The notes below the pieces were generated by a model. The model searched no databases and was not told where the DNA came from. It was given only the letters and a program-made list of their open reading frames with translations. A stretch of 64,000 nucleotides of DNA from an uncultured Actinomycetes bacterium (GTDB lineage Bacteria > Actinomycetota > Thermoleophilia > Gaiellales > Gaiellaceae): the NCBI GenBank assembly GCA_963846915.1, contig CAWJXV010000008.1, forward strand, positions 135,310 through 199,309, in the 5' to 3' direction. The translations under genes and the position numbers were made by a program. Below are positions 9,677 to 46,396 of the stretch, piece by piece (position 1 is the stretch's first letter; each line of letters starts with the position of its first letter).

Positions 9677-10465
9677 TTGCCGGGCAGGCGGATCCGCACG
9701 AGATCGGCGCAGGGCCTGGCGGTCCTGTTCACGCTCGTCTGCTGGACGGCGCTCTTCGGGCTCAGCGATCTCGCGGACGGGTTCAGCGGCTTCGTCGACG
9801 GCGGCCGGAACACCGCGCTGGACGCCGGCTGGGGCATTCTCTTCGGCATCGTCCTGCCCGTCGGCCTCCTCGCGCAGCTGCGGTCGTCCTCGAGAGTCGC
9901 GGGGGTGCACGTGCTGCTGATCGCCGGGATTTCACTCGCCGCCTGGGGCGCCGCCGGCGAGGCGTGGGGCTACCTGGTGCTCGGCTCGGCCACAGTCGCC
10001 CTCGCGGCGCTCTTCGTCGCGCTGAGCGGCGAGCGCGCGTCCGTCCTGCGCCGGCGCGTCCCGGTGTTGCCTCCCTTGCTGCTCCTCGGCGCAGCGGCGA
10101 CGGTGCCGGCCGGTCTCTACGCGGTGCGCATGAGCTCGAACGCTAGGCAGCATCTCCCTCCCACCGATGCCGTATCGCTCGGCATCCCCCACTGGCCGGC
10201 ACTCGGGGCGCTCGCCTCGACCGTGGTGCTGCTCACGGTCGCGGCCGGGCTCGGCGTCCGCGGGCGTCTACTCCTCGGAAGCCTGGCCGGGCTCGCGGCG
10301 TGCCTGTGGGGCGTGTCGTGCCTGCTCTACCCCGGCGTCGCGGGGAGCGAGGGCCGAGGCTGGGCAGCGGCGGCAATCGTGTGGGCGGCGATCACGCTGG
10401 CAACCGTCGCGGTCGAGCGGCAGCGCGACGGTGCGCGAGCGGCCCCGGCGCCCGGCCCGGCCTAG
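9677..10465 (+). CDS. Hypothetical integral membrane protein
   Basis: C-terminal about 260 aa of ORF 8243..10465. Several hydrophobic helices (LAVLFTLVCWTALFGL, GILFGIVLPVGLL, LLIAGISLAAWGAAG, LPPLLLLGAAATVPAGL, TVVLLTVAAGLGV, AAAAIVWAAITLATVAV). The start is uncertain (TTG 9677 proposed). Divergent from fdhA. Confidence 0.45.
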   Translation: MPGRRIRTRSAQGLAVLFTLVCWTALFGLSDLADGFSGFVDGGRNTALDAGWGILFGIVLPVGLLAQLRSSSRVAGVHVLLIAGISLAAWGAAGEAWGYLVLGSATVALAALFVALSGERASVLRRRVPVLPPLLLLGAAATVPAGLYAVRMSSNARQHLPPTDAVSLGIPHWPALGALASTVVLLTVAAGLGVRGRLLLGSLAGLAACLWGVSCLLYPGVAGSEGRGWAAAAIVWAAITLATVAVERQRDGARAAPAPGPA

Positions 10466-27563: not shown

Positions 27564-29654
27564 ATGGAGCGCGCCACGCTCGAGATCCAGGGCATGACCT
27601 GCGCCTCGTGCGCGGCCGGGATCGAGAAGCGGCTCGGCACGCTCGACGGCGTCGAGTCGTGCTCGGTCAACTTCGCCACGCACGAGGCGTCGGTCGCCTT
27701 CGACCCGGCGCAGGTCGACACGGGGCGGCTGGTGTCCGCCGTCGAGGACGTCGGCTACGGCGCCTCGCTGCCCGGCGAGCACGACCACGCGCACGTGCAC
27801 GACCATGGCCCCGACGTCCGCCTGCTCGTCTTCTCCGCCGCGCTGACGCTGCCGCTCGCGCTCGTCGCGATGATCCCGGCGCTCCACTTCTCCGGCTGGG
27901 AGTGGTTCGCCTTCGCGCTCGCGACGCCCGTCGTCCTCGTCGGCGGTTTCCCCTTCCACCGCGTGACGCTCATGCAGGCGCGCCACGGCCGGGCGACGAT
28001 GGACACGCTGATCTCGATCGGCACGCTCGCTGCCTGGGGCTGGTCGACAGTCGTTCTCTTCGCCTCGCTCGACGCGGACACGTACTTCGAGGTCGCCGGC
28101 GTGATCACGACGCTGATCCTGCTCGGCCGCTACCTCGAGGCGCGCGCGACGCGGCGCGCGGGCGCGGCACTGCGCGCGCTGCTCGAGCTGGGCGCACGCG
28201 ACGCGAGCGTGCTGCGCGACGGTGTCGAGGTCCGCGTGCCCGTCGACCGGCTGGAGGTCGGCGACGTCTTCGTCGTCCGGCCCGGCGAGAAGATCGCCAC
28301 CGACGGCGTCGTCGTCGAGGGCCGCTCGTCGGTCGACCGCTCGATGCTCACCGGCGAGCCCGTCCCCGTCGAGACCGAGCCCGGAGACGATGTCGCGGGT
28401 GCGACGATCAACGCCGACGGCCGGCTCGTCGTGCGCGCGACCCGGGTCGGGGCCGAGACTGCCGTGGCGCAGATCGCGCAGATGGTCGCCGACGCGCAGG
28501 CAGGGAAGGCGAGCGTGCAGCGGCTCGCCGACCGCGTCTCGGCGGTGTTCGTGCCGATCGTGATCGGCATCGCGCTCGCGACGCTCGCGGGCTGGCTGGC
28601 GGTGACCGGCGACGCGTCGAGCGCCTTCACGGCCGCCGTCTCGGTGCTGATCATCGCCTGCCCCTGTGCGCTCGGCCTGGCGACGCCCGTTGCACTGATG
28701 GCCGGGACCGGCCGCGGCGCACAGCTCGGCATCCTCGTCCGCGGGCCGGAGGTGCTGGAGCAGACGCGCCGGATCACGACGGTCGTGCTCGACAAGACCG
28801 GCACGGTCACGGAGGGCCACATGGTGCTGACCGGCGTCGAGCCCCTGAACGGCGCCAGCCGGGAGGACGTGCTGCGTCTCGCCGGGGCGCTCGAGGACGC
28901 GAGCGAGCATCCGATCGGGCGGGCGGTCGCGACCGCAGCCCGCGCGGAGGTCGGCGCGCTGCCCCAGGTCGAGTCCTTCCTGAACCGGCCGGGCACCGGC
29001 GTCTCCGGGCGGGTCGAAGGACATGACGTCGAGGTCGGGCGCTCCGACGGTCGCCTCGTCGTCGGCTGGGACGGCGTGCCACGCGCCGAGCTCGTGGTCG
29101 AGGACACGGTCAAGCCGACGAGCGCGGAAGCCGTTCGCGCACTCGAGCAGCTCGGGCTGACGCCGGTCCTCCTGACCGGCGACGCGGAGGAGAGCGCGCA
29201 CCGGATCGCCCGCGCCGTCGGGATCGAGCGGGTCGTGGCCGAGGCGCTTCCCGGCGACAAGCTCGCCGAGATCGCGCGGCTGCAAGCCGCAGGCGAGGTC
29301 GTCGCGATGGTCGGCGACGGTGTCAACGACGCGCCGGCGCTCGCCCAGGCCGACCTGGGCATCGCGATCGGCACGGGCACGGACGTCGCTGTCGAGGCGA
29401 GCGACCTGACGCTCGTCTCGGGTGACCTGCGCGCCGCCGCCGACGCAATCCGGCTCGCGCGGCGGACGCTGCGGACGATCGAGGGGAACCTGTTCTGGGC
29501 CTTCGCGTACAACGTGGCCGCGATCCCGCTCGCCGTCGCCGGCCTGCTCAATCCGATCGTGGCGGCGGCGGCGATGGCCGGGTCGAGCCTGTTCGTGGTC
29601 GGCAACTCGCTCCGGCTGAAGCGGTTCCGGAGCCGACGGGAGGAAACGCGATGA
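27564..29654 (+). CDS. copA: Copper-translocating P-type ATPase
   Basis: ORF 27564..29654. N-terminal HMA domain [13 protein letters not shown], transmembrane CPC motif [32 protein letters not shown]. Confidence 0.95.
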
Positions 29655-29941
29655 CGCACGGGTATGCGGAGAACAAGGAGGCCCTCGTCAAGCGCCTGCA
29701 CCGCATCGAGGGCCAGGTGCGCGGGATCGAGCGCATGGTCGAGGAGGATCGCTACTGCATCGACATCCTCACCCAGCTCGGCGCCGTCACGACCGCGCTC
29801 GAGAGCGTGGCCTTCCGGATCCTCGACGACCACGTCCAGCACTGCGTGGCGGGAGCGCTCGCGTCAGGCGACGCGGCCGAGGCCGACGCGAAGAGCAAGG
29901 AGCTCCTCGACGCCGTCCACCGCTTCACGCGCACGCGCTGA
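29651..29941 (+). CDS. csoR: Copper-sensing transcriptional repressor, CsoR family
   Basis: ORF 29651..29941. [28 protein letters not shown] and HVQHC (Cys-His-Cys ligand pattern). ATGA overlap with the copA stop. Confidence 0.9.
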
Positions 29942-30132
29942 AAGCATCCCTCGAACGGGGGATTCCCGAAGGGAAGAAACCGTCTCAAGCTCAGAGCATG
30001 ACCGCACGCCTTCGAACCAGGCAGTCCACAGGCGAGCGGGCCCGGCCGGACATCTTGGGCGAGGCCGGCTACTAGCACACGGCGACGGAGCGCGGACTGC
30101 GGCCCCGCGCTCCTCCCCGTTCCTCCCGTCGC

Positions 30133-30339
30133 CTACTCGCGCGCGAGCAGCACCTCGGTGGCCTTGATCACCACCGTGATCGTGTCGCCCTCCTTCAGGC
30201 CGAGATTCTCGGCGCTCTTCCGGGTGACCACGGAGACGAGCTCCTGGCCGTTCACGTCGACGGTGACCTCGGCCATCACCCCTCCGAGCAGGATGCCCGT
30301 GACCGTTCCCTTGAGCTGGTTGCGAGCGCTCAGTTCCAT
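30133..30339 (-). CDS. mop: Molybdenum-pterin-binding protein (Mop, single TOBE domain)
   Basis: ORF 30133..30339, 68 aa. MELSARNQLKGTVTGI...VTVDV...LKEGDTITVVIKATEVLLA is a canonical TOBE/Mop module. Confidence 0.85.
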   Translation of the reverse strand: MELSARNQLKGTVTGILLGGVMAEVTVDVNGQELVSVVTRKSAENLGLKEGDTITVVIKATEVLLARE

Positions 30340-30380
30340 GCTTGTCTCTCCTTTGCCGATCGAAGAGGATCATAGGCTGC

Positions 30381-30397
30381 TAGTCATCCACTGACTA
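30381..30397. promoter_or_regulatory. Dyad TAGTCA-N5-TGACTA, copy 1 (candidate molybdate-regulon operator)
   Basis: TAGTCATCCACTGACTA lies between divergent mop (start 30339) and the CBS gene (start 30404). Confidence 0.4.
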
Positions 30398-30403
30398 TCG
30401 GCG

Positions 30404-30817
30404 ATGAGCGCACTGCTCGGTGAGTACGATCCCAGGGTGGCTGCCGAGAGCGAACGCGTGACGGAGGTGATGCTGCGCCGTCCGAAGACCCTGCCCTCGA
30501 GCGCGACGGTGGGAGACGTCCGCGCGTTTTTCCAGAACCCACACGTCATGACGGCGCTGCTCGTCGACGACGGCGACTTTCGTGGGGCGATCGACCGCGG
30601 AGGCCTGCCCGCCGACGCTCCCGACGGAGTGAGCGCGCTCGAGTACGCGGCGGCCGACACGCCGACGATCTCACCGGACGCCGGGGTCGAGGACGCTCTC
30701 GCGGCGCTTCGGGGTGTTGCGTCGCGACGCCTCGTCGTCCTCGACGCAGACGGCGCCAGGCTCCTCGGACTCGTCTGCCTGAACACGACCGGCACCCGGT
30801 TCTGCACCAAGCCGTGA
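30404..30817 (+). CDS. CBS domain-containing protein
   Basis: ORF 30404..30817. Tandem CBS-like halves (VTEVMLRRPKTLPSSATVGDVRAFF... and ...RRLVVLDADGARLLGLVC). Confidence 0.78.
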   Translation: MSALLGEYDPRVAAESERVTEVMLRRPKTLPSSATVGDVRAFFQNPHVMTALLVDDGDFRGAIDRGGLPADAPDGVSALEYAAADTPTISPDAGVEDALAALRGVASRRLVVLDADGARLLGLVCLNTTGTRFCTKP

Positions 30818-30854
30818 CCATCAGCACGGCCGGTCCGGTCGCGTTCGCTGCGAC

Positions 30855-31346
30855 GTGAGCGAGGTCGTCTACCGGCCGATCGGCGTCGTGCGATCTCCCT
30901 TCACGGCGCTCGAAGGAATGCCGCTCCAATCAGTTGCGGCCGAGGACGTCCGCGGCACGATCGAGATCGACCCCGCCTTCGCCGACGGCCTCCGCGACCT
31001 CGACGGCTTCTCGCACCTCTACGTCCTCAGCCATCTCCATCGAGCGCGGCCCGAGGGCCTGATGGTCACGCCGTTTCTCGACGACACTCCACGCGGCGTC
31101 TTCGCGACCCGGTCGCCGCGACACCCCAACCCGGTTGGGCTATCGGTGGTCCGGCTCGACCGTGTGGGGCGAACAACGTTGCACGTCACGGGCCTCGATC
31201 TCCTCGACGGCACGCCGGTCATCGACCTCAAGCCTTATGTCCCTGCCTTCGACAGCATCGTTGCCGAGCGAATCGGCTGGTTCGCCGGCAAGACCGATCG
31301 GGTGCACGAGGTCAGAGCCGACGGTCGCTTCGACGACCGGCGCTGA
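30855..31346 (+). CDS. trmO: tRNA (N6-threonylcarbamoyladenosine(37)-N6)-methyltransferase TrmO (YaeB family)
   Basis: ORF 30855..31346. IGVVRSPF, GFSHLYVLSHLH, RSPRHPNPVGLSVVRL, LDLLDGTPVIDLKPY. Confidence 0.9.
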   Translation: MSEVVYRPIGVVRSPFTALEGMPLQSVAAEDVRGTIEIDPAFADGLRDLDGFSHLYVLSHLHRARPEGLMVTPFLDDTPRGVFATRSPRHPNPVGLSVVRLDRVGRTTLHVTGLDLLDGTPVIDLKPYVPAFDSIVAERIGWFAGKTDRVHEVRADGRFDDRR

Positions 31347-31368
31347 GCAGGTCGCCCGCGCGAAGCCT

Positions 31369-31710
31369 CTAGTTCCGGCTCGCTCGACCAGCGTGATCCG
31401 CGACGGTCCGGTGACCGTCGCACTGGATCTCGGTCACCTCGGCCCACCACCTCGGCCCGTACACGGACCGGAACACTCTCGTAACGGTCGCCAGGACTTC
31501 ATCGACGCTGTCCGACCTGAGCTCGAGCGAGTAACGCCTCTCCTGCTCGATCGCGATGCTGAGGCTGCCGGCCCCAGCCTGAGCGAGCGCCGTGAGCAGC
31601 CGCGAGTCTGTTTCCGGGTCGTCGGCTCCCGGATGCAGGCCGACAACGACGCAGAAACGTCTCGACGCCGCAGAAGGCTCGTTGTCCGGATCCTTCCTTT
31701 CGCCGGCCAC
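31369..31710 (-). CDS. Hypothetical protein (113 aa)
   Basis: ORF 31369..31710. No motif recognised. The start lies 13 nt from dyad copy 2. Coding status rests only on ORF length and position. Confidence 0.4.
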   Translation of the reverse strand: MAGERKDPDNEPSAASRRFCVVVGLHPGADDPETDSRLLTALAQAGAGSLSIAIEQERRYSLELRSDSVDEVLATVTRVFRSVYGPRWWAEVTEIQCDGHRTVADHAGRASRN

Positions 31711-31722
31711 AGTCTGGGATGG

Positions 31723-31739
31723 TAGTCAAGAATTGACTA
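31723..31739. promoter_or_regulatory. Dyad TAGTCA-N5-TGACTA, copy 2
   Basis: TAGTCAAGAATTGACTA is perfect in both arms. It lies in the AT-richer gap between ORF 31369..31710 (minus strand) and ORF 31753..32082 (plus strand). Confidence 0.4.
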
Positions 31740-31752
31740 AAGTCCGGGAGAC

Positions 31753-32082
31753 GTGGGTGCCTCGCCTCACGAAGGTCAGGACGGTCTCCGGGCGCGGGCC
31801 GACCTGTTCAGCGCCGTCGTATCGTCGTGTCAGGGCTGCGGGGCGATGTTCGGGGATCCTCACTGGCCAGGCTGTCCGATCGACATGTTCGACCTGGGTG
31901 ACGCAATGCGGACGTGCCGGGAGCGTGGCTGGGCCGTGGCGTATGTGGACGAGCAAGGTTTCCGGCCCTGCCATCCAGACGAGCCGGGCGGCTCACCGGA
32001 TCGGGATCAGGCGTGTTCCCGCGGCCTTGAAGGACGCGATCACTCGTTGCCCGGTGGCGAGCTGCAGGCGCTCCACCGATGA
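31753..32082 (+). CDS. Candidate small Cys-rich protein (very uncertain)
   Basis: ORF 31753..32082. SSCQGCGAMFGDPHWPGCP...CRERGW...PCHPDE. Third-position GC looks lower than in neighbouring genes. The last 90 nt overlap the convergent modC 3' end. Confidence 0.25.
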   Translation: MGASPHEGQDGLRARADLFSAVVSSCQGCGAMFGDPHWPGCPIDMFDLGDAMRTCRERGWAVAYVDEQGFRPCHPDEPGGSPDRDQACSRGLEGRDHSLPGGELQALHR

Positions 32083-33024
32083 GGCCGTCACCTCGGCCAC
32101 GAGAGGCCCCAGCCCGACCCGCACGCGGTTGGCGACCGGGACGAGCGACGTGATCTCGGCCCAGATGTGGTTGAGCGCCGAGTCCGAGACCGGCTCGTGG
32201 GCGATCGAGATCTCCCAGGGGTAGACGATGGCGTTGACGTCTCCCTCCACCTCGTCGGTCGAGTAGATCCGCTCGCCGCCGGCGAGGGTGACCTCCGCGA
32301 GGCCGTTCCCGCTGCGCCTGGCGACGCCGCGCAGCACGTTGGCGCCGCCCAGGCTGGCCACGAACGAGTCGGCAGGCGACGCCACGAGCTCGGCCGGCGA
32401 CGCGAGCTGGACGAGCTTCCCATCGACGACGACGCCGACCCGGTCGGCGAGCGTCGCCGCGTCCTCGAAGTCGTGCGTGACGAGGATCGTCGGCAGGCCG
32501 CAGTTCTCCAGCAGCTCGTGCAGCTCTCCGCGAACGCGCGTCTTCGTGTGCGCGTCGAGCGCCGACAGAGGCTCGTCGAGGAGCAGCACCGCCGGGTCGC
32601 GGGCCAGGGCACGCGCGAGGGCGACCCGCTGGCGCTCGCCCCCCGACAGCTTGGTCGGACGGGCACCTGCGAGGTGGTCGATCCGGAACCGCTGCAGGAG
32701 CCCGTCGACGTTGCCGTCGCCGCCGAAGGCGACGTTGCGGCGGACGTCGAGATGCGGGAACAGCGCGTACTCCTGGAAGACGAGGCCGACGGAGCGCTCC
32801 TCGGGCGGCAGGAAGACACCCTGCTCGCTGTCGAACCAGCTCTGGCCGCCACAGCTGATCCGCCCGCGCTCGGGCCGCGCGAGGCCCGCGATCGCCCGCA
32901 GCACGCTGGTTTTCCCGGCCCCCGAAGGCCCGACGAGCGCGACTGTCTCGTTCCCGACCTCGAGGGCTAGCTCGAGGACGAACGAGCGAAGAGGAAGGGA
33001 GATGTCGAATCGGAGCGTGTCCAT
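31993..33024 (-). CDS. modC: Molybdate ABC transporter ATP-binding protein
   Basis: ORF 31993..33024. GPSGAGKTS, LSGGERQRVALARAL, LLLDEPLSALD, C-terminal TOBE domain. Confidence 0.92.
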   Translation of the reverse strand: MDTLRFDISLPLRSFVLELALEVGNETVALVGPSGAGKTSVLRAIAGLARPERGRISCGGQSWFDSEQGVFLPPEERSVGLVFQEYALFPHLDVRRNVAFGGDGNVDGLLQRFRIDHLAGARPTKLSGGERQRVALARALARDPAVLLLDEPLSALDAHTKTRVRGELHELLENCGLPTILVTHDFEDAATLADRVGVVVDGKLVQLASPAELVASPADSFVASLGGANVLRGVARRSGNGLAEVTLAGGERIYSTDEVEGDVNAIVYPWEISIAHEPVSDSALNHIWAEITSLVPVANRVRVGLGPLVAEVTASSVERLQLATGQRVIASFKAAGTRLIPIR

Positions 33025-33806
33025 GCGGGCCGGAGCTTGACTGCCAGCAGGATCATGGCGCTGATCAGGACGAGCAGGGCGCTGATCGTCAGGGCGACGT
33101 CGAAGTTGACGTCGAACTCCGCGTAGATCGCGAGCGGCAGGGTCTGGGTGACGCCCTGGAAGCTGCCTGCGAACATGATCGTCGCGCCGAACTCGCCGAT
33201 ACCGCGGGCAAACGCCAGAGCTGCACCGGCGCTGAGACCGGCCATCGCGAGTGGCAGCGCCACCCGGAAGAAGACCCGGGCCGGTGATGCTCCGAGCGTG
33301 CGGGCGGCGTCGATCAGATTCTGGTCGAGGGTTTCGAATGCGGCGATTCCCTGGCGCAGATAGAACGGGCTGGCGACGAAGGCGATCGCCATCACCACGG
33401 CGACCTGGCTGAACGGGATCTGGACGCCGAGCCAGTCGATCGGAGTCCCAAGCAGACCGACGCGGCCGAACGCTGCGAGGAGCCCGATGCCGGCGACGGC
33501 GGGCGGCAGGACGAGCGGCAGCTCGACGAGCGTGAGTGCGAAGCTCCGCCCGCGAAAGCGCCGCGTCCCGATCAGGTACGCCGTCGGTGTGCCGAGCAGG
33601 AGGATCAGCGCCATCGCGATCGCATTCGTCTTCAGGGTGACGAGGAGCGCGTCGGTGACGACCGGGTCGCCGAGCTGTCCGATCAGCTTGCCGGGCGGGA
33701 CACGCAGGAAGATCGCGAGCAGCGGCAGCAGCAGGAACAGCGCCGCTATCCCGGTGGCGAGGAAGAGGCCGAAGCTGAACAGCCGCCTGCTGAGCGTAGG
33801 CGCTAC
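32967..33806 (-). CDS. modB: Molybdate ABC transporter permease
   Basis: 3' 280 codons of ORF 32967..34574. PLVLPPAVAGIGLL, EAA-loop region DAARTLGASPARVFFRVALPLA, ARGIGEFGATIMFAGS. No ATG/GTG/TTG near the expected N-terminus. The upper boundary is placed at the GTA codon overlapping the modA TAG, so the start is unresolved. Confidence 0.85.
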   Translation of the reverse strand, partial: VAPTLSRRLFSFGLFLATGIAALFLLLPLLAIFLRVPPGKLIGQLGDPVVTDALLVTLKTNAIAMALILLLGTPTAYLIGTRRFRGRSFALTLVELPLVLPPAVAGIGLLAAFGRVGLLGTPIDWLGVQIPFSQVAVVMAIAFVASPFYLRQGIAAFETLDQNLIDAARTLGASPARVFFRVALPLAMAGLSAGAALAFARGIGEFGATIMFAGSFQGVTQTLPLAIYAEFDVNFDVALTISALLVLISAMILLAVKLRPAWTRSDSTSPFLFARSSSS

Positions 33807-34591
33807 TTCTTGACCGTCCCCTTCGGGCCGCCGAAGCCGGCTGCCTTGAGGAGCTTCTGCCCCGGCTTCGAGAGCACCTTGGCGATGAACGCGGCCGCCG
33901 CCGTCTGGTTCGACGAGCTCTTGAGGACGGCGATCTCGTACTTCACGTGCGGCTGCGCCCACCCGGGCAGGAACATCGTCTTCACCTTGCCGGGCACCGT
34001 CTTCGCGTCGGTGATGTAGACGAAGCCCGCGTCGGCCTCGCCGAGCGAGACCTTCGTGAGGATGTCGCGAACGTTCTGCTCGTTCGAGACGACGTGCGTC
34101 AGCACGCACTGCAGGCCGAGGTTGGTCAGGACCTGCCGCGTGTAGGAGCCGATCGGCACGGCCTTGTCGCCGATGTCGACCTTGACTCCCGACTTGCACA
34201 GGTCGTAGGCGTTCCTGATCCCGGCAGGGTTCGAGGTCGGCGTGATCAGGACCAGCCGGTTGGTCGCGAACACGACGGGCTTGAGCACGAGACCCTTCTG
34301 GAACAGCTGCTCCGGGTACTTCGGGCTCGCCGCGGCGAACACGTCGGCCGGCGCACCCTGCTGGATCTGGGCCGCCAGCGTGTCCGAGCCGCCGAACGAG
34401 TACTTGTTCGCCGAGTCGATCTGCGGGAACACGTTCGTCAGGGAGGAGGCCGCAAGCACGGTCAGTCCCGAGTTCGCCTTGCCCGACCGGGCAGGGCCGG
34501 CGCTCGCTGCACCGGCGAAGGCAGAGGCGACTCCGACCAGAACGAGGACTGAAGCGGCGACGTGCAGCCGCCACCGGACAGGACTTCTCAC
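33803..34591 (-). CDS. modA: Molybdate ABC transporter substrate-binding protein
   Basis: ORF 33803..34591 (GTG start). Signal peptide, then LTVLAASSLTNVF, GGSDTLAAQIQQGAPADVFAAAS, ADAGFVYITDA. Confidence 0.92.
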   Translation of the reverse strand: MRSPVRWRLHVAASVLVLVGVASAFAGAASAGPARSGKANSGLTVLAASSLTNVFPQIDSANKYSFGGSDTLAAQIQQGAPADVFAAASPKYPEQLFQKGLVLKPVVFATNRLVLITPTSNPAGIRNAYDLCKSGVKVDIGDKAVPIGSYTRQVLTNLGLQCVLTHVVSNEQNVRDILTKVSLGEADAGFVYITDAKTVPGKVKTMFLPGWAQPHVKYEIAVLKSSSNQTAAAAFIAKVLSKPGQKLLKAAGFGGPKGTVKK

Positions 34592-34612
34592 GTCGACCCC
34601 CTCCTCTGACGG

Positions 34613-34990
34613 TTAGCGCTGGACCATGACCGAGGTCGCCTTGACGACCGCGGTCGCATCCATCCCGGGGCGAATCCCGAGCTCCTCCAGTGACTCGCGC
34701 GTGATGATCGAGACGACTCGACCGGGCTCGGTGACCTCGATGTCGACCTGGGCGAGCAGCCCGTCGACCTTGATCTCGCGGACGATGCCGCGAAACCGGT
34801 TGCGGGCGCTGAGCGTTCCGTCGCCGTCAGCTCCGCGGATGCGCTCGATCTCGGCCGCGGCGACGACACGCCGGTTGCCTCGATCGCGGCTCGTTTCGAT
34901 CCGGCCGTCGCGGTCCCAGCGCCGGATCGTGTCGATGCTGACACCGAGTGCACGGGCGGCCTCGCCGATCGAATACTGCTGCTTAGGCAC
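34613..34990 (-). CDS. Molybdate-responsive transcription regulator candidate (MerR/excisionase-type HTH fused to a TOBE domain)
   Basis: ORF 34613..34990 (GTG start). HTH region YSIGEAARALGVSIDTIRRWDRDG. TOBE region SARNRFRGIVREIKVDGLLAQVDIEV...ATAVVKATSVMV. Sits directly upstream of modABC. Confidence 0.85.
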   Translation of the reverse strand: MPKQQYSIGEAARALGVSIDTIRRWDRDGRIETSRDRGNRRVVAAAEIERIRGADGDGTLSARNRFRGIVREIKVDGLLAQVDIEVTEPGRVVSIITRESLEELGIRPGMDATAVVKATSVMVQR

Positions 34991-35021
34991 TGCCTAGAAC
35001 CTATCAGCCGGCCTCGGACGG

Positions 35022-35621
35022 TCACGAGATGAAAGGATCGAGCGCCGCCGAGCCGTCCTCGACGCTGAGCGGAACCGGGAACGACAGCCCGATCGGTCTG
35101 TCGAGGACGATTCGCGAAAACACGCTCAGATGCTGGGCATGGCTAGCAGCGATGCGCGCGAACGCGCCGCGCGTGCCGGCATCTTGCAGCGATCCTGCAC
35201 CGCCCAGGTAGATGCCCAGGAACGCCGTCTCGAGCTGGAGGCCGAGCTGCGCCGTGCTGCGCCTCGTCGCGAACGCCTTGGCCGGGAAGGTGAAGTCGAA
35301 GTCGCCGGCCTGACCCGGCGTCTGGCCGGCGTCGGTCAGGAACTTGGCGGTCGCGGTGTAGTGCTCGCCCTCGTTCGAGAGCGCCCGCTTCAGGTATCGG
35401 GTCTCGTTCCCGCCGAAGACCTTCGCAGCCAGTGCCTGTGTGTAGAACTCGGCTCCGAGGAGCTCCGCTGCGAGCGCCAGCGTCACCACCGGGATGTCCC
35501 CCGGGCCGATCGCCTCGGCGCCGGCCGCTGCTTCGGACGCAAAGACGCCGCCGGTCAGCGCGAAGGCGGCGCCCCCTGCCGCGGTCCGAGCCAGCAGTTG
35601 ACCCCGAGTCAGTCCTGTCAC
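35022..35621 (-). CDS. Ferritin-like domain protein with N-terminal export signal
   Basis: ORF 35022..35621. LTRGQLLARTAAGGAAFALTGGVFA signal-like N-terminus. LALAAELLGAEFYTQAL...NEGEHY...IAASHAQH resembles ferritin-like (Ferritin_2/DUF4439-type) helices. Confidence 0.7.
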   Translation of the reverse strand: MTGLTRGQLLARTAAGGAAFALTGGVFASEAAAGAEAIGPGDIPVVTLALAAELLGAEFYTQALAAKVFGGNETRYLKRALSNEGEHYTATAKFLTDAGQTPGQAGDFDFTFPAKAFATRRSTAQLGLQLETAFLGIYLGGAGSLQDAGTRGAFARIAASHAQHLSVFSRIVLDRPIGLSFPVPLSVEDGSAALDPFIS

Positions 35622-35670
35622 CCGCTCTCCTCTCCCACGACCTAGGCAATGCCTGGCTACAGGCGCAGGA

Positions 35671-35687
35671 TAGTAACAGACTGACTA
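35671..35687. promoter_or_regulatory. Dyad TAGTAA-N5-TGACTA, copy 3 (one mismatch)
   Basis: TAGTAACAGACTGACTA lies 50 nt upstream of the ferritin-like gene that heads the ferritin-like / HTH-TOBE / modABC gene string. An extra half-site TGACTA occurs at 35699-35704. Confidence 0.35.
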
Positions 35688-35701
35688 CTGCCCTGGGCTG
35701 A

Positions 35702-36286
35702 CTATCGCACTCGGGCGGTGAGCAGGAAGCGCAGGACGGCGCGGGTGGACTCGAGCCGCCACTCCACGAGCGTCCGTTCGAAGCCCTCGAGCTCGCGCGC
35801 CTGCTCCTCCAGCGCCTCCGCAACCGGCTCGAGCAGCGCCTGCTCGGCCTCGAGCAACGGCGCCGGATCGCCGCCGGAGCGGTCGAGGAAGAGGAGCTTG
35901 AGCATCAGCAGCGAGCGAACGTCGCGCACGTGCTCCACGGGCTCGTTCAACCACCGGCCCAGACGGCGGCGTCCGAGCGCCGTCGCCCGGATCGATCTCC
36001 GGTCCGGACCCCGATCGCTCGGCTCGACGGCTCCCTTCTCCACGAGCCCGGCCTCGACCAGCTCGTCGAGCGCGCGATACACGAGCGGCCGGGAGAGCGA
36101 CCACACGCGCCCGATCTCGCCGTCGGAGCCGAGCGCCTTCGCGACCGCGAACCCGTGCGTCGGGCCCTCCGCGGTCAGCGCGAGCACGGCCCACGCGCCG
36201 GCGCCCAGCGATTTCTCGGCCACGGAGAGACCATAACTTCCCCATCCCTGGATCGAGGGATGCCGGGCCGTGGCCGGCTGGTCCAT
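35702..36286 (-). CDS. PadR family transcriptional regulator
   Basis: ORF 35702..36286. WAVLALTAEGPTHGFAVAKAL...WSLSRPLVYRALDELVEAGLV is PadR wHTH, followed by a C-terminal coiled region. The start may be GTG 36223. Confidence 0.85.
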   Translation of the reverse strand: MDQPATARHPSIQGWGSYGLSVAEKSLGAGAWAVLALTAEGPTHGFAVAKALGSDGEIGRVWSLSRPLVYRALDELVEAGLVEKGAVEPSDRGPDRRSIRATALGRRRLGRWLNEPVEHVRDVRSLLMLKLLFLDRSGGDPAPLLEAEQALLEPVAEALEEQARELEGFERTLVEWRLESTRAVLRFLLTARVR

Positions 36287-36644
36287 GCTGAGGAGTGGCG
36301 TGACGTTCGTCTACCTCGCTCACCGGCGCTCGCAGGACGTGCTCACGGCGTTCCAGGCGCGGCCGATGATCGTGTCGCTCCGCACCCAGCGCCGGCTCAT
36401 CTCGGCGACCGACGCGCACTTCCTGGTGACAGAGCTCGCCCGCCTCCCTGAGACACGCTGGCCGGCGGCCCCGGCGCTCAGGGAGCGCATGGTCACGGGC
36501 CTCGCGAGGGGCTGGCCGATCACGCTGACCGCGGACGAGGAGCCGACGTTGCTCCGCGCGGTCGCGGGTGCCCGAACGCGGCGCCCGCTCACGGCGGGCC
36601 TGCGCCTCCTGCGCGATGCGCTCGCTCCCGGCAGCGTCGGTTAG
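36270..36644 (+). CDS. Hypothetical protein
   Basis: ORF 36270..36644, divergent from PadR. No recognisable motif. An alternative ATG lies at 36285. Confidence 0.4.
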   Translation: MAGWSMLRSGVTFVYLAHRRSQDVLTAFQARPMIVSLRTQRRLISATDAHFLVTELARLPETRWPAAPALRERMVTGLARGWPITLTADEEPTLLRAVAGARTRRPLTAGLRLLRDALAPGSVG

Positions 36645-36645
36645 A

Positions 36646-36732
36646 GTCTCGTCACCGGGGTGCCCCGGCGGGTCCGGGGCTGAGATCACACCCGCTGAAC
36701 CTGATCCGGTTCGTACCGGCGAAGGGAGGCGT
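36646..36732 (+). promoter_or_regulatory. TPP (THI-box) riboswitch
   Basis: GUCUCGUCACCGGGGUGCCCCGGCGGGUCCGGGGCUGAGAUCACACCCGCUGAACCUGAUCCGGUUCGUACCGGCGAAGGGAGGCGU. It contains the conserved GGGGUGC, CUGAGA, ACCC..GAACCUGAUC.GG...ACC.GCG.AGGGA elements. Candidate P1 is GUCUC/GAGGC, whose 3' strand overlaps the GGGAGG Shine-Dalgarno of the ATG at 36733. Confidence 0.85.
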
Positions 36733-36936
36733 ATGAGCGTAGGCTCGACGGAGCTCACGGAGGAGCGGAGGCGGTGGCTCCGCCGCCGCCGGGAGCGGGC
36801 ATGAGCGTAGGCTCGACGGAGCTCACAGAAGAGCGGAGGCGGTGGCTCCGCCGCCGCCGGGAGCGGGCATGAGCGTAGGCTCGACGGAGCTCACAGAAGA
36901 GCGGAGGCGGTGGCTCTGCCGCCGCCGGGAGCGGGA
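36733..36936 (+). repeat. Tandem repeat, 3 x 68 bp
   Basis: Units 36733-36800, 36801-36868 and 36869-36936. Unit 1 vs unit 2 has 2 substitutions (ACG/ACA, GAG/GAA). Unit 2 vs unit 3 has 2 substitutions (CGC/TGC, GCA/GAA). Each unit starts with ATGAGCGTAGGCTCGACGGAGCTCAC. Confidence 0.95.
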
Positions 36937-36940
36937 ATGA
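36733..36940 (+). other. Three chained 23-codon mini-ORFs (MSVGSTELTEERRRWL[R/C]RRRER[A/E]) between the riboswitch and cytX
   Basis: ORFs 36733-36804, 36801-36872 and 36869-36940. Each TGA overlaps the next ATG (ATGA), and the last overlaps the cytX ATG at 36937. A GGGAG lies 5 nt before every ATG. Translation is not demonstrated. Confidence 0.35.
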
Positions 36941-38286
36941 GCTCGGAAACGCCTCCGTGGGGCATCGAGCCCGTCCCCGACAGGCTCCGCGTCCTCGGCT
37001 TCCTCGACTCGCTCCTGCTCTGGGGGAACCTCTCCGTCTCGCTGCTCGTGATCGTGATCGGCGCCCTGCTCGTGCCGGCGCTCTCGCTTCGCGACGCGCT
37101 GCTCGCGATCGTGGTCGGCGCGATCGCCGGCAGCGCACTCCTGGCCGCCGCGGCGCTGATCGGCGCCGACGGCCGCGTGCCGGGAATGGTGCTGCTGCGC
37201 GCGCCGCTCGGGAGGCAGGGCTCGTACGCGCCGACCGTCCTCAACATCGCGCAGAACGTCGGCTGGTCGACCTTCGAGCTGATCATCATCGCCGCCGCCG
37301 CCGGCGCGCTCTCGAAGCACCTGTTCGGCTGGCAGGGCACGTGGTTCTGGACGATCGTGTTCGGACTGCTCTCCTGGGCGCTCGGGATGCTCGGGCCGAT
37401 CGGGTTCGTGCGCCGCTACGTGCGGAAGTTCGCGTCGTGGGCGCTGATCTTCGCGATGGCGTACCTGACCTACTGGGCGATCGAGAAGGCCAACCTCCAT
37501 GCGTTCTGGGCGCAGCCGGGCAAGGGCGGCTTCCCGACGTTCGGCCAGGCGATCGACCTCGTGATCGCGAGCGTCGTCTCCTGGACACCGCTCGCCGCCG
37601 ACTACACACGCTTCTCGCGCTCACGGCGCGGCGCCTTCTGGGGCGCGGGGCTCGGCTACGTCGTGCCGACGATCTGGTGCATCGGGCTCGGCATCCTCGT
37701 CGTCCTCGCGCGGGGGATCGCCGATGCGCAGTCGCTGCCGGCCGGCGTCGCGGCGGCGGGAGGTGTCGCGCTCGTCGCCCTCGCGGCGATCACGATCGAC
37801 GAGAGCGAGAAGGCGTTCGCCGACATCTACTCGACCGCGGTGTCGATCCAGAACCTGCTCCCGCGCGTGTCGCAGCGGCTCCTGATCACGCTCGTCTCCG
37901 CGGCGGCGACCGGGCTCGCGCTCGCGCTCGACCTCGGCAACTACCAGAACTTCCTCTACCTGCTCGGGTCGTGCTTCGTCCCGCTCTTCGGCGTGCTGCT
38001 CGCCGACTGGCTCGTCGCCGGCGCGCACTACCGGGAGCAGGACATCTTCGGCGCGCCCGCCTTCCGGTTCGAGCAGATCGCGGCGTGGGTCGTCGGCTTC
38101 TGCCTCTACCAGTGGCTGTCGCCGGTCGGGCCGAACTGGTGGACCCACCTCGTCGCCCACACGCATCCGGGCTACGTGAGCTTCACCGCCTCGTTACCGG
38201 CCTTCGGAGCCTCGTTCGCGCTCGCGGCGGCCGGCGCGTTCGTCTATCGGCGCGTCCGCACGCGCAGCGCGCTGGCCGAGGCCTGA
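36937..38286 (+). CDS. cytX: NCS1-family transporter, CytX-like (putative hydroxymethylpyrimidine/thiamine-precursor permease)
   Basis: ORF 36910..38286 trimmed to ATG 36937 (MSSETPPWGIEPVPDRLRVLGFLDSLLLWGNLSVSLL...). 12 transmembrane helices. Lies downstream of the TPP riboswitch, as is usual for cytX. Confidence 0.85.
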   Translation: MSSETPPWGIEPVPDRLRVLGFLDSLLLWGNLSVSLLVIVIGALLVPALSLRDALLAIVVGAIAGSALLAAAALIGADGRVPGMVLLRAPLGRQGSYAPTVLNIAQNVGWSTFELIIIAAAAGALSKHLFGWQGTWFWTIVFGLLSWALGMLGPIGFVRRYVRKFASWALIFAMAYLTYWAIEKANLHAFWAQPGKGGFPTFGQAIDLVIASVVSWTPLAADYTRFSRSRRGAFWGAGLGYVVPTIWCIGLGILVVLARGIADAQSLPAGVAAAGGVALVALAAITIDESEKAFADIYSTAVSIQNLLPRVSQRLLITLVSAAATGLALALDLGNYQNFLYLLGSCFVPLFGVLLADWLVAGAHYREQDIFGAPAFRFEQIAAWVVGFCLYQWLSPVGPNWWTHLVAHTHPGYVSFTASLPAFGASFALAAAGAFVYRRVRTRSALAEA

Positions 38287-45943: not shown

Positions 45944-46387
45944 TTACGAGTCTTGCTCGGGCGGCCAGCTCAGGTCGGCGCCCGGGATCGGGTCGCCGTG
46001 CGGATCGCGCGTCGGGAAGCCGAGCGACTCGTCGATCCGGGCTTCCAGCTCCTCCGAGAGCGCGTGCTCGAGCCGTTCCGCCTCGGCGTGCACGTCGTCG
46101 AGGGGCAGGCCGAGCGTCTCCGACAGGTACTGCTCGAGCAGACGGTGGTGCCTGATCACCTCGATGGCCGCCTTCTCACCGGCCCGGGTCAGCGTGACGC
46201 CGTGATACCGCTCGTGCCGGACGAGCTTGAGCTCGGCGAGCTTCTTCAGCATCGCCGTCGCCGACGGCGGCGAGACGCCCACGCGCTCGGCCAGGGCGGA
46301 GGTCGTGGCGCGCCCCTGCTCGGTCTGCAGCTTGTAGATCTCCTTGAGGTAGTCCTCGGCCGTCTGGCTGAGCGGCGCGGTCGTCAT
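45944..46387 (-). CDS. DtxR/MntR family metal-dependent transcriptional regulator (two-domain, no SH3 domain)
   Basis: ORF 45944..46393, start at ATG 46387. [33 protein letters not shown], metal-site region [10 protein letters not shown]-terminal [12 protein letters not shown]. Confidence 0.88.
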
Positions 46388-46396
46388 GCACACAAG

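What the first reader, a model, noticed from the sequence alone, without database searches (positions are those of the whole stretch)
30381..35704. Recurring 17-bp dyad TAGTCA-N5-TGACTA at three promoters around the molybdate genes: candidate operator of the HTH-TOBE regulator
I noticed the motif three times. (1) TAGTCATCCACTGACTA at 30381-30397, between divergent mop and a CBS gene. (2) TAGTCAAGAATTGACTA at 31723-31739, 13 nt upstream of hypothetical ORF 31369..31710. (3) TAGTAACAGACTGACTA at 35671-35687, upstream of the ferritin-like gene heading the ferritin-like / HTH-TOBE regulator / modA / modB / modC string, with an extra TGACTA half-site at 35699-35704. I did not do a systematic scan of the window for further copies. 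An AT-rich dyad stands out in a roughly 70 percent GC background. All three copies are intergenic and next to molybdate-related genes (Mop, ModABC, TOBE regulator). The regulator here is not E. coli-type ModE. It is a MerR/excisionase-like HTH fused to one TOBE domain, and I am not aware of a defined operator for that architecture. If correct, the dyad defines a small Mo regulon that also includes the CBS protein (possibly trmO downstream), the 113-aa hypothetical protein and the exported ferritin-like protein.
Basis: partly seen in the sequence, partly recalled or inferred. Interest (0 to 1): 0.65.

Follow-up and report, generated by a model that had tools for sequence, protein, structure and literature searches.

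The report
PadR-type operator around molybdate genes
The 17-bp palindrome at three promoters around the molybdate-uptake genes is real and recurs in a second phylum, but it most likely binds the neighbouring PadR-family repressor, not the molybdate-sensing HTH-TOBE regulator, which has a different operator of its own.

Summary
TAGTCA-N5-TGACTA occurs at 30381, 31723 and, with one mismatch, 35671. No copies are expected by chance, and all three are intergenic and overlap promoter cores.

In 59 of 80 related Gaiellales loci the HTH-TOBE gene carries a different palindrome, CCTAGGCA-W-TGCCTAGG ("motif B"). In 39 loci it is centred exactly on the regulator's start codon. The window has two copies, at 34982-34998 and 35641-35657.

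- Motif A is kept in relatives that have this PadR and has decayed in one that lost it.
- Where the HTH-TOBE gene is missing, motif A stays intact and motif B decays.
- Motif A recurs upstream of modA, or of padR-modA operons, in Thermomicrobiales and other metagenomic lineages.
- There are 14 exact matches in 275 kb of such loci, and none in 1.31 Mb of loci with HTH-TOBE but no PadR.

Its form, TAGT-N9-ACTA, fits the canonical PadR operator ATGT-N8-10-ACAT.

The best reading is two repressors on the molybdate locus. No binding experiment exists. I found no paper linking PadR to molybdate.

The parts
30381..30397 (.). Motif A site 1: TAGTCATCCACTGACTA, a perfect dyad between the divergent mop and CBS-trmO genes
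   Evidence: The only sigma-70-like promoter match in 30000-36500 is TAGTCA(30397-30392)-17 nt-TATGAT(30374-30369) for mop, so the dyad covers the -35 box and the spacer. Its centre is 15 nt from the CBS ATG and 50 nt from the mop ATG. L001 keeps a variant, TAATCATCCTTTGAGTA, at the same place.
31723..31739 (.). Motif A site 2: TAGTCAAGAATTGACTA, a perfect dyad between ORF 31710..31369 (minus, 113 aa) and ORF 31753..32082 (plus, 109 aa)
   Evidence: The centre is 21 and 22 nt from the two GTG starts. The outer TA of each arm begins a TAnnnT box (TACCAT, TAAAGT), read directly from the sequence. The flanking genes are absent from every related locus held, so this site is specific to the window.
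35671..35687 (.). Motif A site 3: TAGTAACAGACTGACTA (gene strand TAGTCAGTCTGTTACTA), between the padR stop codon and the ferritin-like gene
   Evidence: It is identical (17 of 17) in L001, L002 and L177 and has decayed in L003, which lacks PadR. L013 has TAGTCTGACAATGACTA at the same 30-bp distance from motif B. The gene-strand sequence TACTAT/TATCCT looks like a -10 box lying inside or at the edge of the dyad.
35699..35704 (.). Extra TGACTA half-site; probably not functional
   Evidence: It overlaps the TAG stop codon of padR and is not conserved in L001, L002 or L177.
35702..36286 (-). PadR-family (subfamily 1) regulator gene and proposed binder of motif A; the likely true start is the GTG at 36223 (174 aa)
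   Evidence: Pfam PF03551, E 1e-9. The best solved-structure match is AphA 1yg2, E 3e-10. Homologues are 172-177 aa long. Homologues at 58-73% identity lie next to mod and HTH-TOBE genes in all five distinct contexts looked up (the sixth look-up returned the same gene order). The window protein is 31% identical (E 2e-14) to the PadR of Thermomicrobiales modA-padR operons.
35641..35657 (.). Motif B copy 1: CCTAGGCAATGCCTGGC (gene strand gCCAGGCATTGCCTAGG), the proposed HTH-TOBE operator in the ferritin-like gene's promoter or leader
   Evidence: Its centre is 30 bp from the centre of site 3. It is kept in L001, L002 and L003 and has decayed in L177, which lacks the HTH-TOBE gene.
34982..34998 (.). 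Motif B copy 2: gene strand TCTAGGCA-GTG-CCTAAG, centred on the GTG start codon (34990) of the HTH-TOBE gene
   Evidence: It sits in the same register as in 39 of 80 related loci, where the dyad centre is base 1 of the regulator's start codon.
34613..34990 (-). HTH(MerR/excisionase-like)-TOBE regulator, 125 aa; it keeps the molybdate-ligand motifs SARN and KATS
   Evidence: Pfam MerR 7e-12, HTH_17 3e-7, TOBE 2e-12; NCBIfam Mop 5e-18. S61, A62, R63, N64, K117, T119 and S120 are invariant in alignment A1. Only the TOBE part matches any solved structure.
35022..35621 (-). Ferritin_2-domain protein, first gene of the operon downstream of site 3
   Evidence: Pfam PF13668, 1.6e-15. The same position is conserved in L001, L002, L003, L177 and L013.
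31993..34591 (-). modA (34591..33803), modB (about 33790..32967, start not determined) and modC (33024..31993)
30133..30339 (-). mop, a 68-aa TOBE-only molbindin and target of site 1
   Evidence: Pfam TOBE 4e-21; NCBIfam Mop 8e-21. In relatives mop is often the last gene of the mod operon.
30404..31346 (+). CBS-domain gene (30404-30817) and TrmO/TsaA-like gene (30855-31346), transcribed away from site 1
   Evidence: A GACTAT -10-like box lies 6 nt before the CBS ATG, read directly from the sequence.

Best explanation
Motif A (here TAGTCA-N5-TGACTA; family consensus TAnTC[A/G]-N5-[C/T]GAnTA) is the operator of the PadR-family, subfamily-1 regulator encoded at 35702-36223/36286.

Inferred mechanism: a PadR dimer places its two winged-helix recognition helices in successive major grooves, on half-sites whose centres are 11 bp apart. 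Because each dyad overlaps a -10 or -35 element, binding shuts several promoters at once. These are mop (dyad over the -35 box and spacer), CBS-trmO, the two small ORFs flanking site 2, and the ferritin-like/HTH-TOBE/modABC operon (dyad over the -10 box).

The HTH-TOBE protein is a second, separate repressor. It binds motif B (CCTAGGCA-W-TGCCTAGG) 30 bp downstream of site 3 and again on its own start codon. The molybdate-uptake operon is therefore under two locks.

Shown here: the sequences, their positions, their conservation, and their co-occurrence with the two regulator genes. Inferred: binding itself, repression, and the signal. The PadR effector is unknown. The constant company of modA, mop, XdhC and Moco genes argues that it is related to molybdenum.
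For: 1. Reciprocal natural experiment in one alignment.
- The window, L001 and L002 have both genes and both motifs intact.
- L177 has PadR but no HTH-TOBE gene. Motif A is 17 of 17 identical, while motif B has decayed to ACGAGGCATGACCTGGG.
- L003 has HTH-TOBE but no PadR. Motif B is intact, while motif A has decayed to GGTGTCGGTCTGTTAGGA.

2. Among the 80 Gaiellales loci, PadR lies within 10 kb only in L001 and L002, and those two keep motif A. The 78 loci with HTH-TOBE but no PadR (1.31 Mb) hold 0 exact matches to TAnTCR-N5-YGAnTA. In 275 kb of PadR-bearing and Thermomicrobiales mod loci there are 14 exact matches, against 0-1 in shuffles, and all lie in padR, modA or mop promoter regions.

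3. Recurrence in another phylum. All seven Thermomicrobiales/Chloroflexota loci (L163, L168-L173) have the dyad 25-45 nt upstream of modA, downstream of a TTGACA-N17-TACGCT-type promoter. Three of them have padR in the operon, as modA-modB-padR or modA-padR. None has an HTH-TOBE gene within 6 kb or a motif B in the promoter region.

4. Twelve of 80 Mop-anchored metagenome loci carry a PadR homologue beside modA or mop. Seven of them have a dyad of this family just upstream of padR or in the padR-mop intergenic region: L116, L118, L120, L123, L127, L130 and L162.

5. PadR homologues at 58-73% identity lie next to mod or HTH-TOBE genes in all five distinct contexts looked up (one search repeated the gene order). 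L176 has two motif A copies 55-105 nt upstream of padR and a motif B at the head of the HTH-TOBE operon.

6. Geometry. Motif A reads TAGT-N9-ACTA. The canonical PadR operator is ATGT/ACAT separated by 8-10 nt, for both PadR subfamilies (PMC3506622).

7. Motif B is the better candidate for HTH-TOBE. There are 64 sites with at most one mismatch in 1.35 Mb (9-16 in shuffles). Of these, 61 lie at the operon start and 39 are centred on base 1 of the regulator's start codon.
Against: No binding or expression data exist; the whole case rests on association.
- In the window, L001, L002 and L177 the dyad lies downstream of padR, not upstream, so this clade shows no classical autoregulation.
- L013 has motif A but no PadR in the stretch fetched. 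L163, L169, L171 and L172 also show the dyad without a padR in the stretch held. L163 is only 3.3 kb long.
- L174, L175, L090, L136, L141 and L157 have PadR but no match with at most one mismatch. L089's only one-mismatch match lies outside the padR, modA and mop promoter regions.
- The recognition helices differ between actinobacterial PadRs (SRPLVYRALD) and Thermomicrobiales PadRs (EQAMLYQHLKKL), although the half-sites are nearly the same.
- Characterised PadR proteins sense organic ligands that release them from DNA. A molybdenum-linked signal for a PadR has no precedent that I could find.
Confidence: 0.68

Rival explanations
1. One reading: motif A is the operator of the HTH(MerR/excisionase)-TOBE regulator, which binds it when loaded with molybdate. 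A softer version is that the protein binds both motif A and motif B.
For: The regulator is encoded in the operon headed by site 3 and keeps its molybdate ligands. All targets are linked to molybdenum. Motifs A and B share the 6-N5-6 geometry and a TAG core, and they sit at a conserved 30-bp distance. That spacing could allow one oligomer, such as a TOBE hexamer, to touch both.
Against: - There are 0 exact motif A matches in 1.31 Mb around 78 orthologous regulators, whose recognition helix (S-I/L-D-T-I/L-RRWD) is invariant.
- Those same loci carry motif B on the regulator's own start codon.
- Motif A is unchanged in L177, where the regulator gene is absent, and has decayed in L003, where it is present.
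- Motif A occurs in Thermomicrobiales loci with no such regulator within 6 kb.
- Aligned on their centres, the half-sites TAGTCA and CCTAGG share no position. Aligned on TAG, the spacing differs by 4 bp.
Confidence: 0.1
2. Motif A is bound by a third transcription factor encoded elsewhere in the genome, for example another molybdenum- or stress-responsive regulator. On this view PadR is only a frequent neighbour.
For: Several loci have the dyad without a padR in the stretch held (L013, L163, L169, L171, L172). Several PadR loci lack a clear dyad. The PadR recognition helices differ between phyla although the half-sites are alike. Only 10-20 kb per genome could be inspected.
Against: PadR is the only DNA-binding gene that recurs beside the dyad in three or more lineages. 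In many loci the dyad sits 20-40 nt upstream of padR-modA operons. Loss of padR coincides with decay of the dyad in L003. The dyad also fits the PadR operator form.
Confidence: 0.15
3. Motif A is not a protein operator. It would instead be a shared promoter element, a small repeat or mobile remnant, or a chance similarity.
For: The outer TA of each arm starts a TAnnnT box, and one arm serves as the -35 box of mop. Part of the conservation could therefore come from promoter function.
Against: No copies are expected by chance. The symmetry is perfect at sites 1 and 2. The dyad symmetry is kept across phyla while positions 3 and 15 and the spacer vary, which is the signature of a dimer's binding site. 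No Rfam family covers the sites. No sequence beyond the 17 bp is repeated.
Confidence: 0.05

Closest known systems
PadR-family subfamily-1 repressors (B. subtilis PadR, V. cholerae AphA, Listeria LadR) and their ATGT-N8-10-ACAT operators
   Same: Both have a winged-helix PadR domain followed by a C-terminal domain of roughly 80-90 aa, for a total of about 175 aa. The operator is a short inverted repeat with a GT...AC core and a 9-nt inner spacer, placed on promoter cores next to the regulator gene.
   Different: The half-site is TAGTCA or TAnTCR, not ATGT. The targets are molybdate uptake and storage genes rather than detoxification, efflux or virulence genes. The effector is unknown and may be inorganic or delivered by a protein. 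In this window the site lies downstream of padR. The operon also carries a second repressor site.
ModE and its Mo-box (E. coli, Azotobacter and Rhodobacter MopA/MopB)
   Same: It plays the same physiological role: repression of modABC and control of mop or molbindin genes according to molybdenum supply. That role is summarised in PMC11672702 and PMC12327845. Control of mop by MopA in Rhodobacter capsulatus is from my own knowledge.
   Different: ModE has a LysR-like winged HTH plus two Mop domains. Its box is AT-rich, of the TATAT-N7-TAYAT type (from my own knowledge). Neither regulator here has that architecture, and neither motif resembles that box.
TaoR family (HTH_17 plus a periplasmic-binding-protein-like domain; tungstate-responsive; Rajeev et al. 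2019, cited in PMC11980592 and PMC12327845)
   Same: This comparison concerns the HTH-TOBE partner, not motif A. Both are regulators of Mo/W transport that carry an excisionase/MerR-like HTH_17 domain.
   Different: The sensor domain here is a single TOBE, not a PBP-like domain. The TaoR paper is not held, so I could not compare its operator.
MerR-family activators and HspR with its HAIR element
   Same: The HTH of the TOBE regulator scores against the MerR, MerR_1 and HspR models. Site 1 lies between the -35 and -10 boxes of mop, as MerR operators do.
   Different: The mop promoter has an optimal 17-bp spacer, not the 19-20 bp that MerR-type distortion needs. The protein has no MerR coiled-coil. 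Motif A does not follow the HTH-TOBE gene.

Membership tests
PadR-family regulator and operator pair | A regulator with a PadR winged-helix domain; subfamily 1 is about 180 aa with a multi-helix C-terminal domain of 80-90 aa | tested here: met
   PF03551, E 1e-9. AphA 1yg2, E 3e-10. Homologues are 172-177 aa. The subfamily definition is from PMC3506622. PF10400 hits the Thermomicrobiales homologues but not the window protein at E<0.01.
PadR-family regulator and operator pair | The operator is an inverted repeat of ATGT/ACAT type with an 8-10 nt spacer | tested here: inconclusive
   Motif A reads TAGT-N9-ACTA, so the GT/AC core and the spacing fit, but the outer bases differ and the conserved part extends inward (TCA...TGA).
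PadR-family regulator and operator pair | The operator lies next to the regulator gene or its operon (autoregulation or control of the neighbouring gene) | tested here: met
   Site 3 abuts the padR stop codon. The dyad lies upstream of padR or padR-containing operons in L116, L118, L120, L123, L127, L130, L162, L168, L170, L173 and L176. Caveat: the window has no copy upstream of padR itself.
PadR-family regulator and operator pair | The protein binds the DNA directly, and a ligand releases it | not testable with these tools
   This needs gel-shift or footprinting assays with purified protein.
ModE / Mo-box regulon | A ModE-type regulator (LysR-like HTH plus two Mop domains) and an AT-rich Mo-box | tested here: not met
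   No such protein is in the window. The TOBE regulator scores only 17 bits against the ModE model NF007957, whose cut-off is 369. Neither motif is of the TATAT type.
   There are 0 exact matches in 78 loci, 1.31 Mb. Motif B meets this test instead, in 59 of 80 loci.
MerR-type activator site | A dyad between -35 and -10 boxes separated by an over-long 19-20 bp spacer | tested here: not met
   The mop promoter spacer is 17 bp. The other sites overlap -10-like boxes.
Molybdate-binding TOBE/Mop domain (HTH-TOBE and Mop) | A TOBE fold with the SARN and K-A-T/S ligand motifs | tested here: met
   TIGR00638 scores 64.9 and 73.9 bits against a cut-off of 55. SARN and KATS are invariant. The ligand residues are as described for ModE in PMC11672702.

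The most novel reading that the evidence does not exclude
A widespread and so far undescribed subfamily of PadR regulators is a primary molybdenum-homeostasis regulator in Actinomycetota, Chloroflexota and other soil lineages, standing in for ModE. PadR has no oxyanion-binding domain of its own. The most novel version is that it senses molybdate indirectly, through the TOBE-only Mop protein that is almost always encoded beside it. That would make a split ModE: a PadR DNA-binding module plus a Mop sensor module. Where an HTH-TOBE regulator is also present, the two form a double lock on modABC, with operators 30 bp apart.
Probability: 0.2. Interest if true: 0.75.

Novelty: new member of a known kind. 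Interest (0 to 1): 0.6.

Why it matters
Molybdate regulation is understood mainly through ModE, with TunR and TaoR in a few anaerobes. For most Actinomycetota and Chloroflexota, which dominate soils, no regulator or operator is defined.

This work yields two testable regulator-operator pairs.
- A mod-linked PadR with TAnTCR-N5-YGAnTA. I found no paper that links PadR to molybdenum.
- The very common HTH-TOBE protein, with more than 7,800 homologues, paired with CCTAGGCA-W-TGCCTAGG centred on its own leaderless start codon.

Both motifs can be used at once to reconstruct molybdenum regulons in metagenome-assembled genomes. Their targets include a secreted ferritin-like protein, a CBS protein, a TrmO-like protein and XdhC/Moco genes. 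Both could also serve as parts for molybdate biosensors. The case also shows that a correct motif can be given to the wrong neighbouring regulator when a second regulator gene is overlooked.

Tried and rejected
- Strict TAGTCA-N5-TGACTA scan of the 80 regulator loci. It gave almost nothing, which first looked like non-conservation. Relaxing positions 3 and 15, after seeing the Thermomicrobiales sites, recovered the L001 site 1 orthologue.
- One-mismatch hits in L067 and L071. They are unrelated: one lies at gene 3' ends, the other in a MarR/YceI intergenic region.
- Other regulators in the window as binders. CsoR and the DtxR/MntR-like protein have no dyad near their own genes.
- An RNA element. 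Rfam finds only a TPP riboswitch elsewhere in the window.
- HTH-TOBE homologues on actinomycete replicons in the plasmid collection (Streptomyces, Nonomuraea, Nocardia, Mycobacterium, Pseudonocardia, Rhodococcus). Only the Streptomyces locus L081 shows a clear related dyad, TGCATGCA-A-TGCTTGCA. The others were uninformative.
- Literature. Searches for a defined operator of MerR/HTH_17-TOBE regulators and for PadR with molybdate found nothing relevant. The TaoR paper is not held.
- Contigs of P0257 and P0267. Gene order was returned but no DNA.
- The palindrome GTAACAGTCTGTTAC in L021, present twice. It shares 12 nt with site 3, but its symmetry centre is shifted by 1 nt. It remains unexplained.

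Full report
**Observation**

- Site 1: TAGTCATCCACTGACTA, 30381-30397.
- Site 2: TAGTCAAGAATTGACTA, 31723-31739.
- Site 3: TAGTAACAGACTGACTA, 35671-35687.

The pattern TAGTMA-N5-TGACTA finds only these three places in 64 kb, against 0.00 expected from shuffles. All six TGACTA hexamers of the window belong to them.

Pfam and NCBIfam confirm the surrounding genes:
- mop, 30339..30133, TOBE only;
- a CBS-domain gene, 30404-30817;
- a TrmO-like gene, 30855-31346;
- modC, modB and modA, 33024..31993 to 34591..33803;
- a 125-aa MerR/HTH_17-TOBE regulator, 34990..34613;
- a Ferritin_2-domain protein, 35621..35022.

Its stop codon lies inside the "extra half-site" next to site 3. Homologues are 172-177 aa long, so its real start is probably the GTG at 36223.

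**Position on promoters**

The only sigma-70-like promoter match in 30000-36500 is TAGTCA-17 nt-TATGAT for mop. One arm of site 1 is therefore its -35 box. At the other sites the outer TA of an arm begins a TAnnnT box 6-9 nt before a start codon. These boxes are TAAAGT before the GTG at 31753, TACCAT before the GTG at 31710, and TACTAT/TATCCT before the ferritin-like gene. A GACTAT box lies 6 nt before the CBS ATG. I read these directly from the sequence. The dyad centres lie 15-22 nt from the nearest start codons, and 50 and 58 nt from mop and the ferritin-like gene. This is the layout of a repressor operator on promoter cores, several of which appear to drive leaderless transcripts. No Rfam family covers the sites.

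**What the HTH-TOBE regulator's own promoters show**

The regulator has more than 7,800 homologues, and the closest named ones come from Gaiellaceae. I fetched 80 loci around orthologues with 62-90% identity, all from Gaiellales or Thermoleophilia metagenome-assembled genomes. In most of them the regulator is the first gene of a regulator-modABC operon.

The strict first-reader motif was nearly absent from these loci. A different palindrome stood out directly at the regulator's start. This is motif B, C[C/A]TAGG-N5-CCTA[G/T]G, or in full CCTAGGCA-W-TGCCTAGG.
- It occurs with at most one mismatch 64 times in 1.35 Mb, against 9-16 in shuffles.
- 61 of those sites, in 59 loci, lie at the operon start.
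- In 39 loci the centre of the dyad is base 1 of the start codon. Codons 2-3 (CCT AGG or CCT AAG, giving the conserved MPR/MPK N-terminus) then form the second half-site.

The window has two copies. One is centred on the regulator's GTG (gene strand TCTAGGCA-GTG-CCTAAG, 34982-34998). The other lies 30 bp downstream of site 3 (35641-35657). A Streptomyces homologue with 48% identity has TGCATGCA-A-TGCTTGCA upstream of its gene, which shares the GCA-W-TGC core. Motif B is thus the classical autoregulation signature of the HTH-TOBE protein. That protein keeps the SARN and KATS molybdate ligands.

**What motif A follows**

A metagenome scan anchored on Mop showed that mop is usually part of mod operons. 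One locus, L163, had a perfect TAGTCAATGGCTGACTA between divergent modA and mop genes. Its ModA homologues are named Thermomicrobiales or Chloroflexota.

In all six longer contigs of that group the same kind of dyad lies 25-45 nt upstream of modA, just downstream of a TTGACA-N17-TACGCT-type promoter:
- TACTCAGTAATTGAGTA;
- TACTCAAACCTTGAGTA;
- TAGTCAATGATTGAATA;
- TAGTCAATAGCTGAATA;
- TAATCAGTGATTGAGTA;
- TAATCACACATTGACTA.

Three of these contigs have a PadR gene in the operon, as modA-modB-padR or modA-padR. None has an HTH-TOBE gene within 6 kb or a motif B in the promoter region.

With the relaxed consensus TAnTCA-N5-TGAnTA, relative L001 shows TAATCATCCTTTGAGTA at the CBS/decayed-mop intergenic region. 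Site 1 is therefore conserved there.

Homologues of the window's PadR at 58-73% identity lie beside mod or HTH-TOBE genes in all five distinct contexts looked up. The sixth look-up returned the same gene order. In L176, two motif A copies lie upstream of padR and a motif B lies at the head of the HTH-TOBE operon.

Twelve of the 80 Mop-anchored loci also carry a PadR next to modA or mop. Seven of them have dyads of the same family just upstream of padR or in the padR-mop intergenic region, for example TACTCGATAAGCGAGTA, TATTCGGCAACCGAATA and CACTCAATGCGTGACTA.

In numbers, TAnTCR-N5-YGAnTA has 14 exact matches in 275 kb of these loci, against 0-1 in shuffles, and all lie in padR, modA or mop promoter regions. 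It has no exact match in 1.31 Mb of the 78 Gaiellales loci that have HTH-TOBE but no PadR.

**A natural two-by-two experiment**

The ferritin-like gene's promoter was aligned across five genomes.

| Genome | PadR gene | HTH-TOBE gene | Motif A | Motif B |
|---|---|---|---|---|
| window, L001, L002 | present | present | intact | intact |
| L177 | present | absent | 17 of 17 identical | decayed to CGAGGCATGACCTGGG |
| L003 | absent | present | five of twelve specified bases changed | intact |

L177 is syntenic with the window. Each motif is lost together with one regulator gene.

**Mechanism**

The best-supported model has two repressors on the molybdate locus.

A dimer of the PadR-subfamily-1 protein binds motif A. 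The closest solved structure is AphA. Motif A reads TAGT-N9-ACTA and fits the canonical PadR operator ATGT-N8-10-ACAT (PMC3506622). Binding would occlude the promoters of mop, CBS-trmO, the two small ORFs at site 2, and the ferritin-like/HTH-TOBE/modABC operon.

HTH-TOBE presumably binds motif B when molybdate bridges its TOBE domains, as in ModE and Mop. This would happen downstream of the ferritin-like gene's transcription start and on the regulator's own start codon.

The sequences, positions and co-occurrence are shown here. Binding, the direction of regulation and the signal are inferred.

The PadR effector is unknown. Its constant company of modA, mop, XdhC and MocA-like genes and Oxidored_molyb genes argues for a signal linked to molybdenum. 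One speculative option is that the Mop protein supplies the sensor function.

**Weak points**
- In this clade the dyad lies downstream of padR, not upstream.
- L013 and four Thermomicrobiales loci show the dyad without a padR in the stretch held.
- Several PadR loci lack a clear dyad.
- Recognition helices differ between phyla.
- Site 2 and its flanking ORFs are unique to the window.
- The 113-aa ORF is a real but rare protein. It has 11 homologues among 1.84 billion representatives, and the match starts near residue 15. Its GC3 is 0.80.
- The 109-aa ORF is less certain, with a GC3 of 0.73.
- The extra half-site is not conserved.

**Comparison with known systems**
- This is not a ModE/Mo-box system. 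The ModE model scores 17 bits against a cut-off of 369.
- It is not a MerR-type activator site, because the mop promoter spacer is 17 bp.
- The HTH-TOBE protein shares only the HTH_17 domain with TaoR.
- No solved structure covers the HTH-TOBE architecture.
- I found no paper that links PadR to molybdate or modA, and none that defines an operator for MerR/HTH_17-TOBE regulators.

**Verdict**

The regulon idea is supported. The regulator assignment is most likely wrong and should be replaced by PadR, with confidence 0.68. The HTH-TOBE operator is a different motif. In kind, this is a new regulator-operator pair within the known PadR family, with a new physiological role. Interest is 0.6.

Noticed in passing
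window 34982-34998 and 35641-35657; position 9993 in most of L001-L080: A second palindrome, CCTAGGCA-W-TGCCTAGG, is centred exactly on the start codon of the HTH-TOBE gene in 39 of 80 related loci. Codons 2-3 (CCT AGG or CCT AAG) form one half-site, so the DNA site may constrain the conserved MPR/MPK N-terminus. The mRNA appears to be leaderless.
   Followed up: yes
window 36646-36745 (+) and 36733-36942: A TPP riboswitch (RF00059, 61.9 bits) lies upstream of an NCS1-type permease (36910-38286). Directly after the aptamer, a 68-nt unit starting with ATGAGCG... is tandemly repeated 3.1 times at 97% identity and overlaps the permease start. The expression platform or start region may have been triplicated.
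   Followed up: partly
window 30855-31346; L091, L098, L100, L101, L104, L106: TrmO/TsaA-like (TrmO_N) genes lie next to mop in the window and in six Mop-anchored metagenome loci from other lineages. This hints at a molybdenum-linked role for this TrmO paralogue rather than tRNA methylation.
   Followed up: partly
L021 about 7595-7680: The perfect palindrome GTAACAGTCTGTTAC occurs twice, 60-130 nt upstream of that locus's regulator. It shares 12 consecutive bases (AGTAACAGACTG) with window site 3, but its symmetry centre is shifted by 1 nt. Its binder and its relation to motif A are unexplained.
   Followed up: no
L168 3787-5855; L171 3722-4569; L172 2766-5831: In Thermomicrobiales the mop gene divergent from modA heads operons that encode XdhC/CoxI-type Moco chaperones and a MocA-like nucleotidyltransferase, or an Oxidored_molyb enzyme with a second solute-binding protein. 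These genes are therefore likely members of the same dyad-controlled regulon.
   Followed up: no
L001 13466-13600: In the closest relative the mop gene next to CBS has decayed to a remnant (CTG GAA CTG AGC GCG CGG AAC CAG...), while CBS is intact. In L002 mop is fused to the end of the mod operon. The position of mop is highly fluid between close relatives.
   Followed up: partly
window 31369-31710 (-) and 31753-32082 (+): The two small ORFs flanking site 2 are absent from all related loci held. The 113-aa protein has only 11 distant homologues among 1.84 billion representatives. The 109-aa ORF is Cys-rich (CQGCG...HWPGCP) and overlaps the 3' end of modC by 90 nt in the antisense direction.
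   Followed up: partly
window 27564-29941 and 45944-46393: A CopA P-type ATPase with a CsoR repressor lies immediately beside the molybdate cluster, and the same synteny appears in L177 and on the contig of P0257. A DtxR/MntR-like regulator (149 aa) sits next to an ABC transporter. The region is a cluster of metal-homeostasis genes.
   Followed up: no
L131, L133, L140, L142-L144, upstream of mop: A conserved structured-looking leader of about 90 nt (…ctacggtgttccttagcg…gggtaccgg…caggaggcag) precedes mop in several metagenome loci. It may be a Moco-type riboswitch. It was not checked against Rfam.
   Followed up: no
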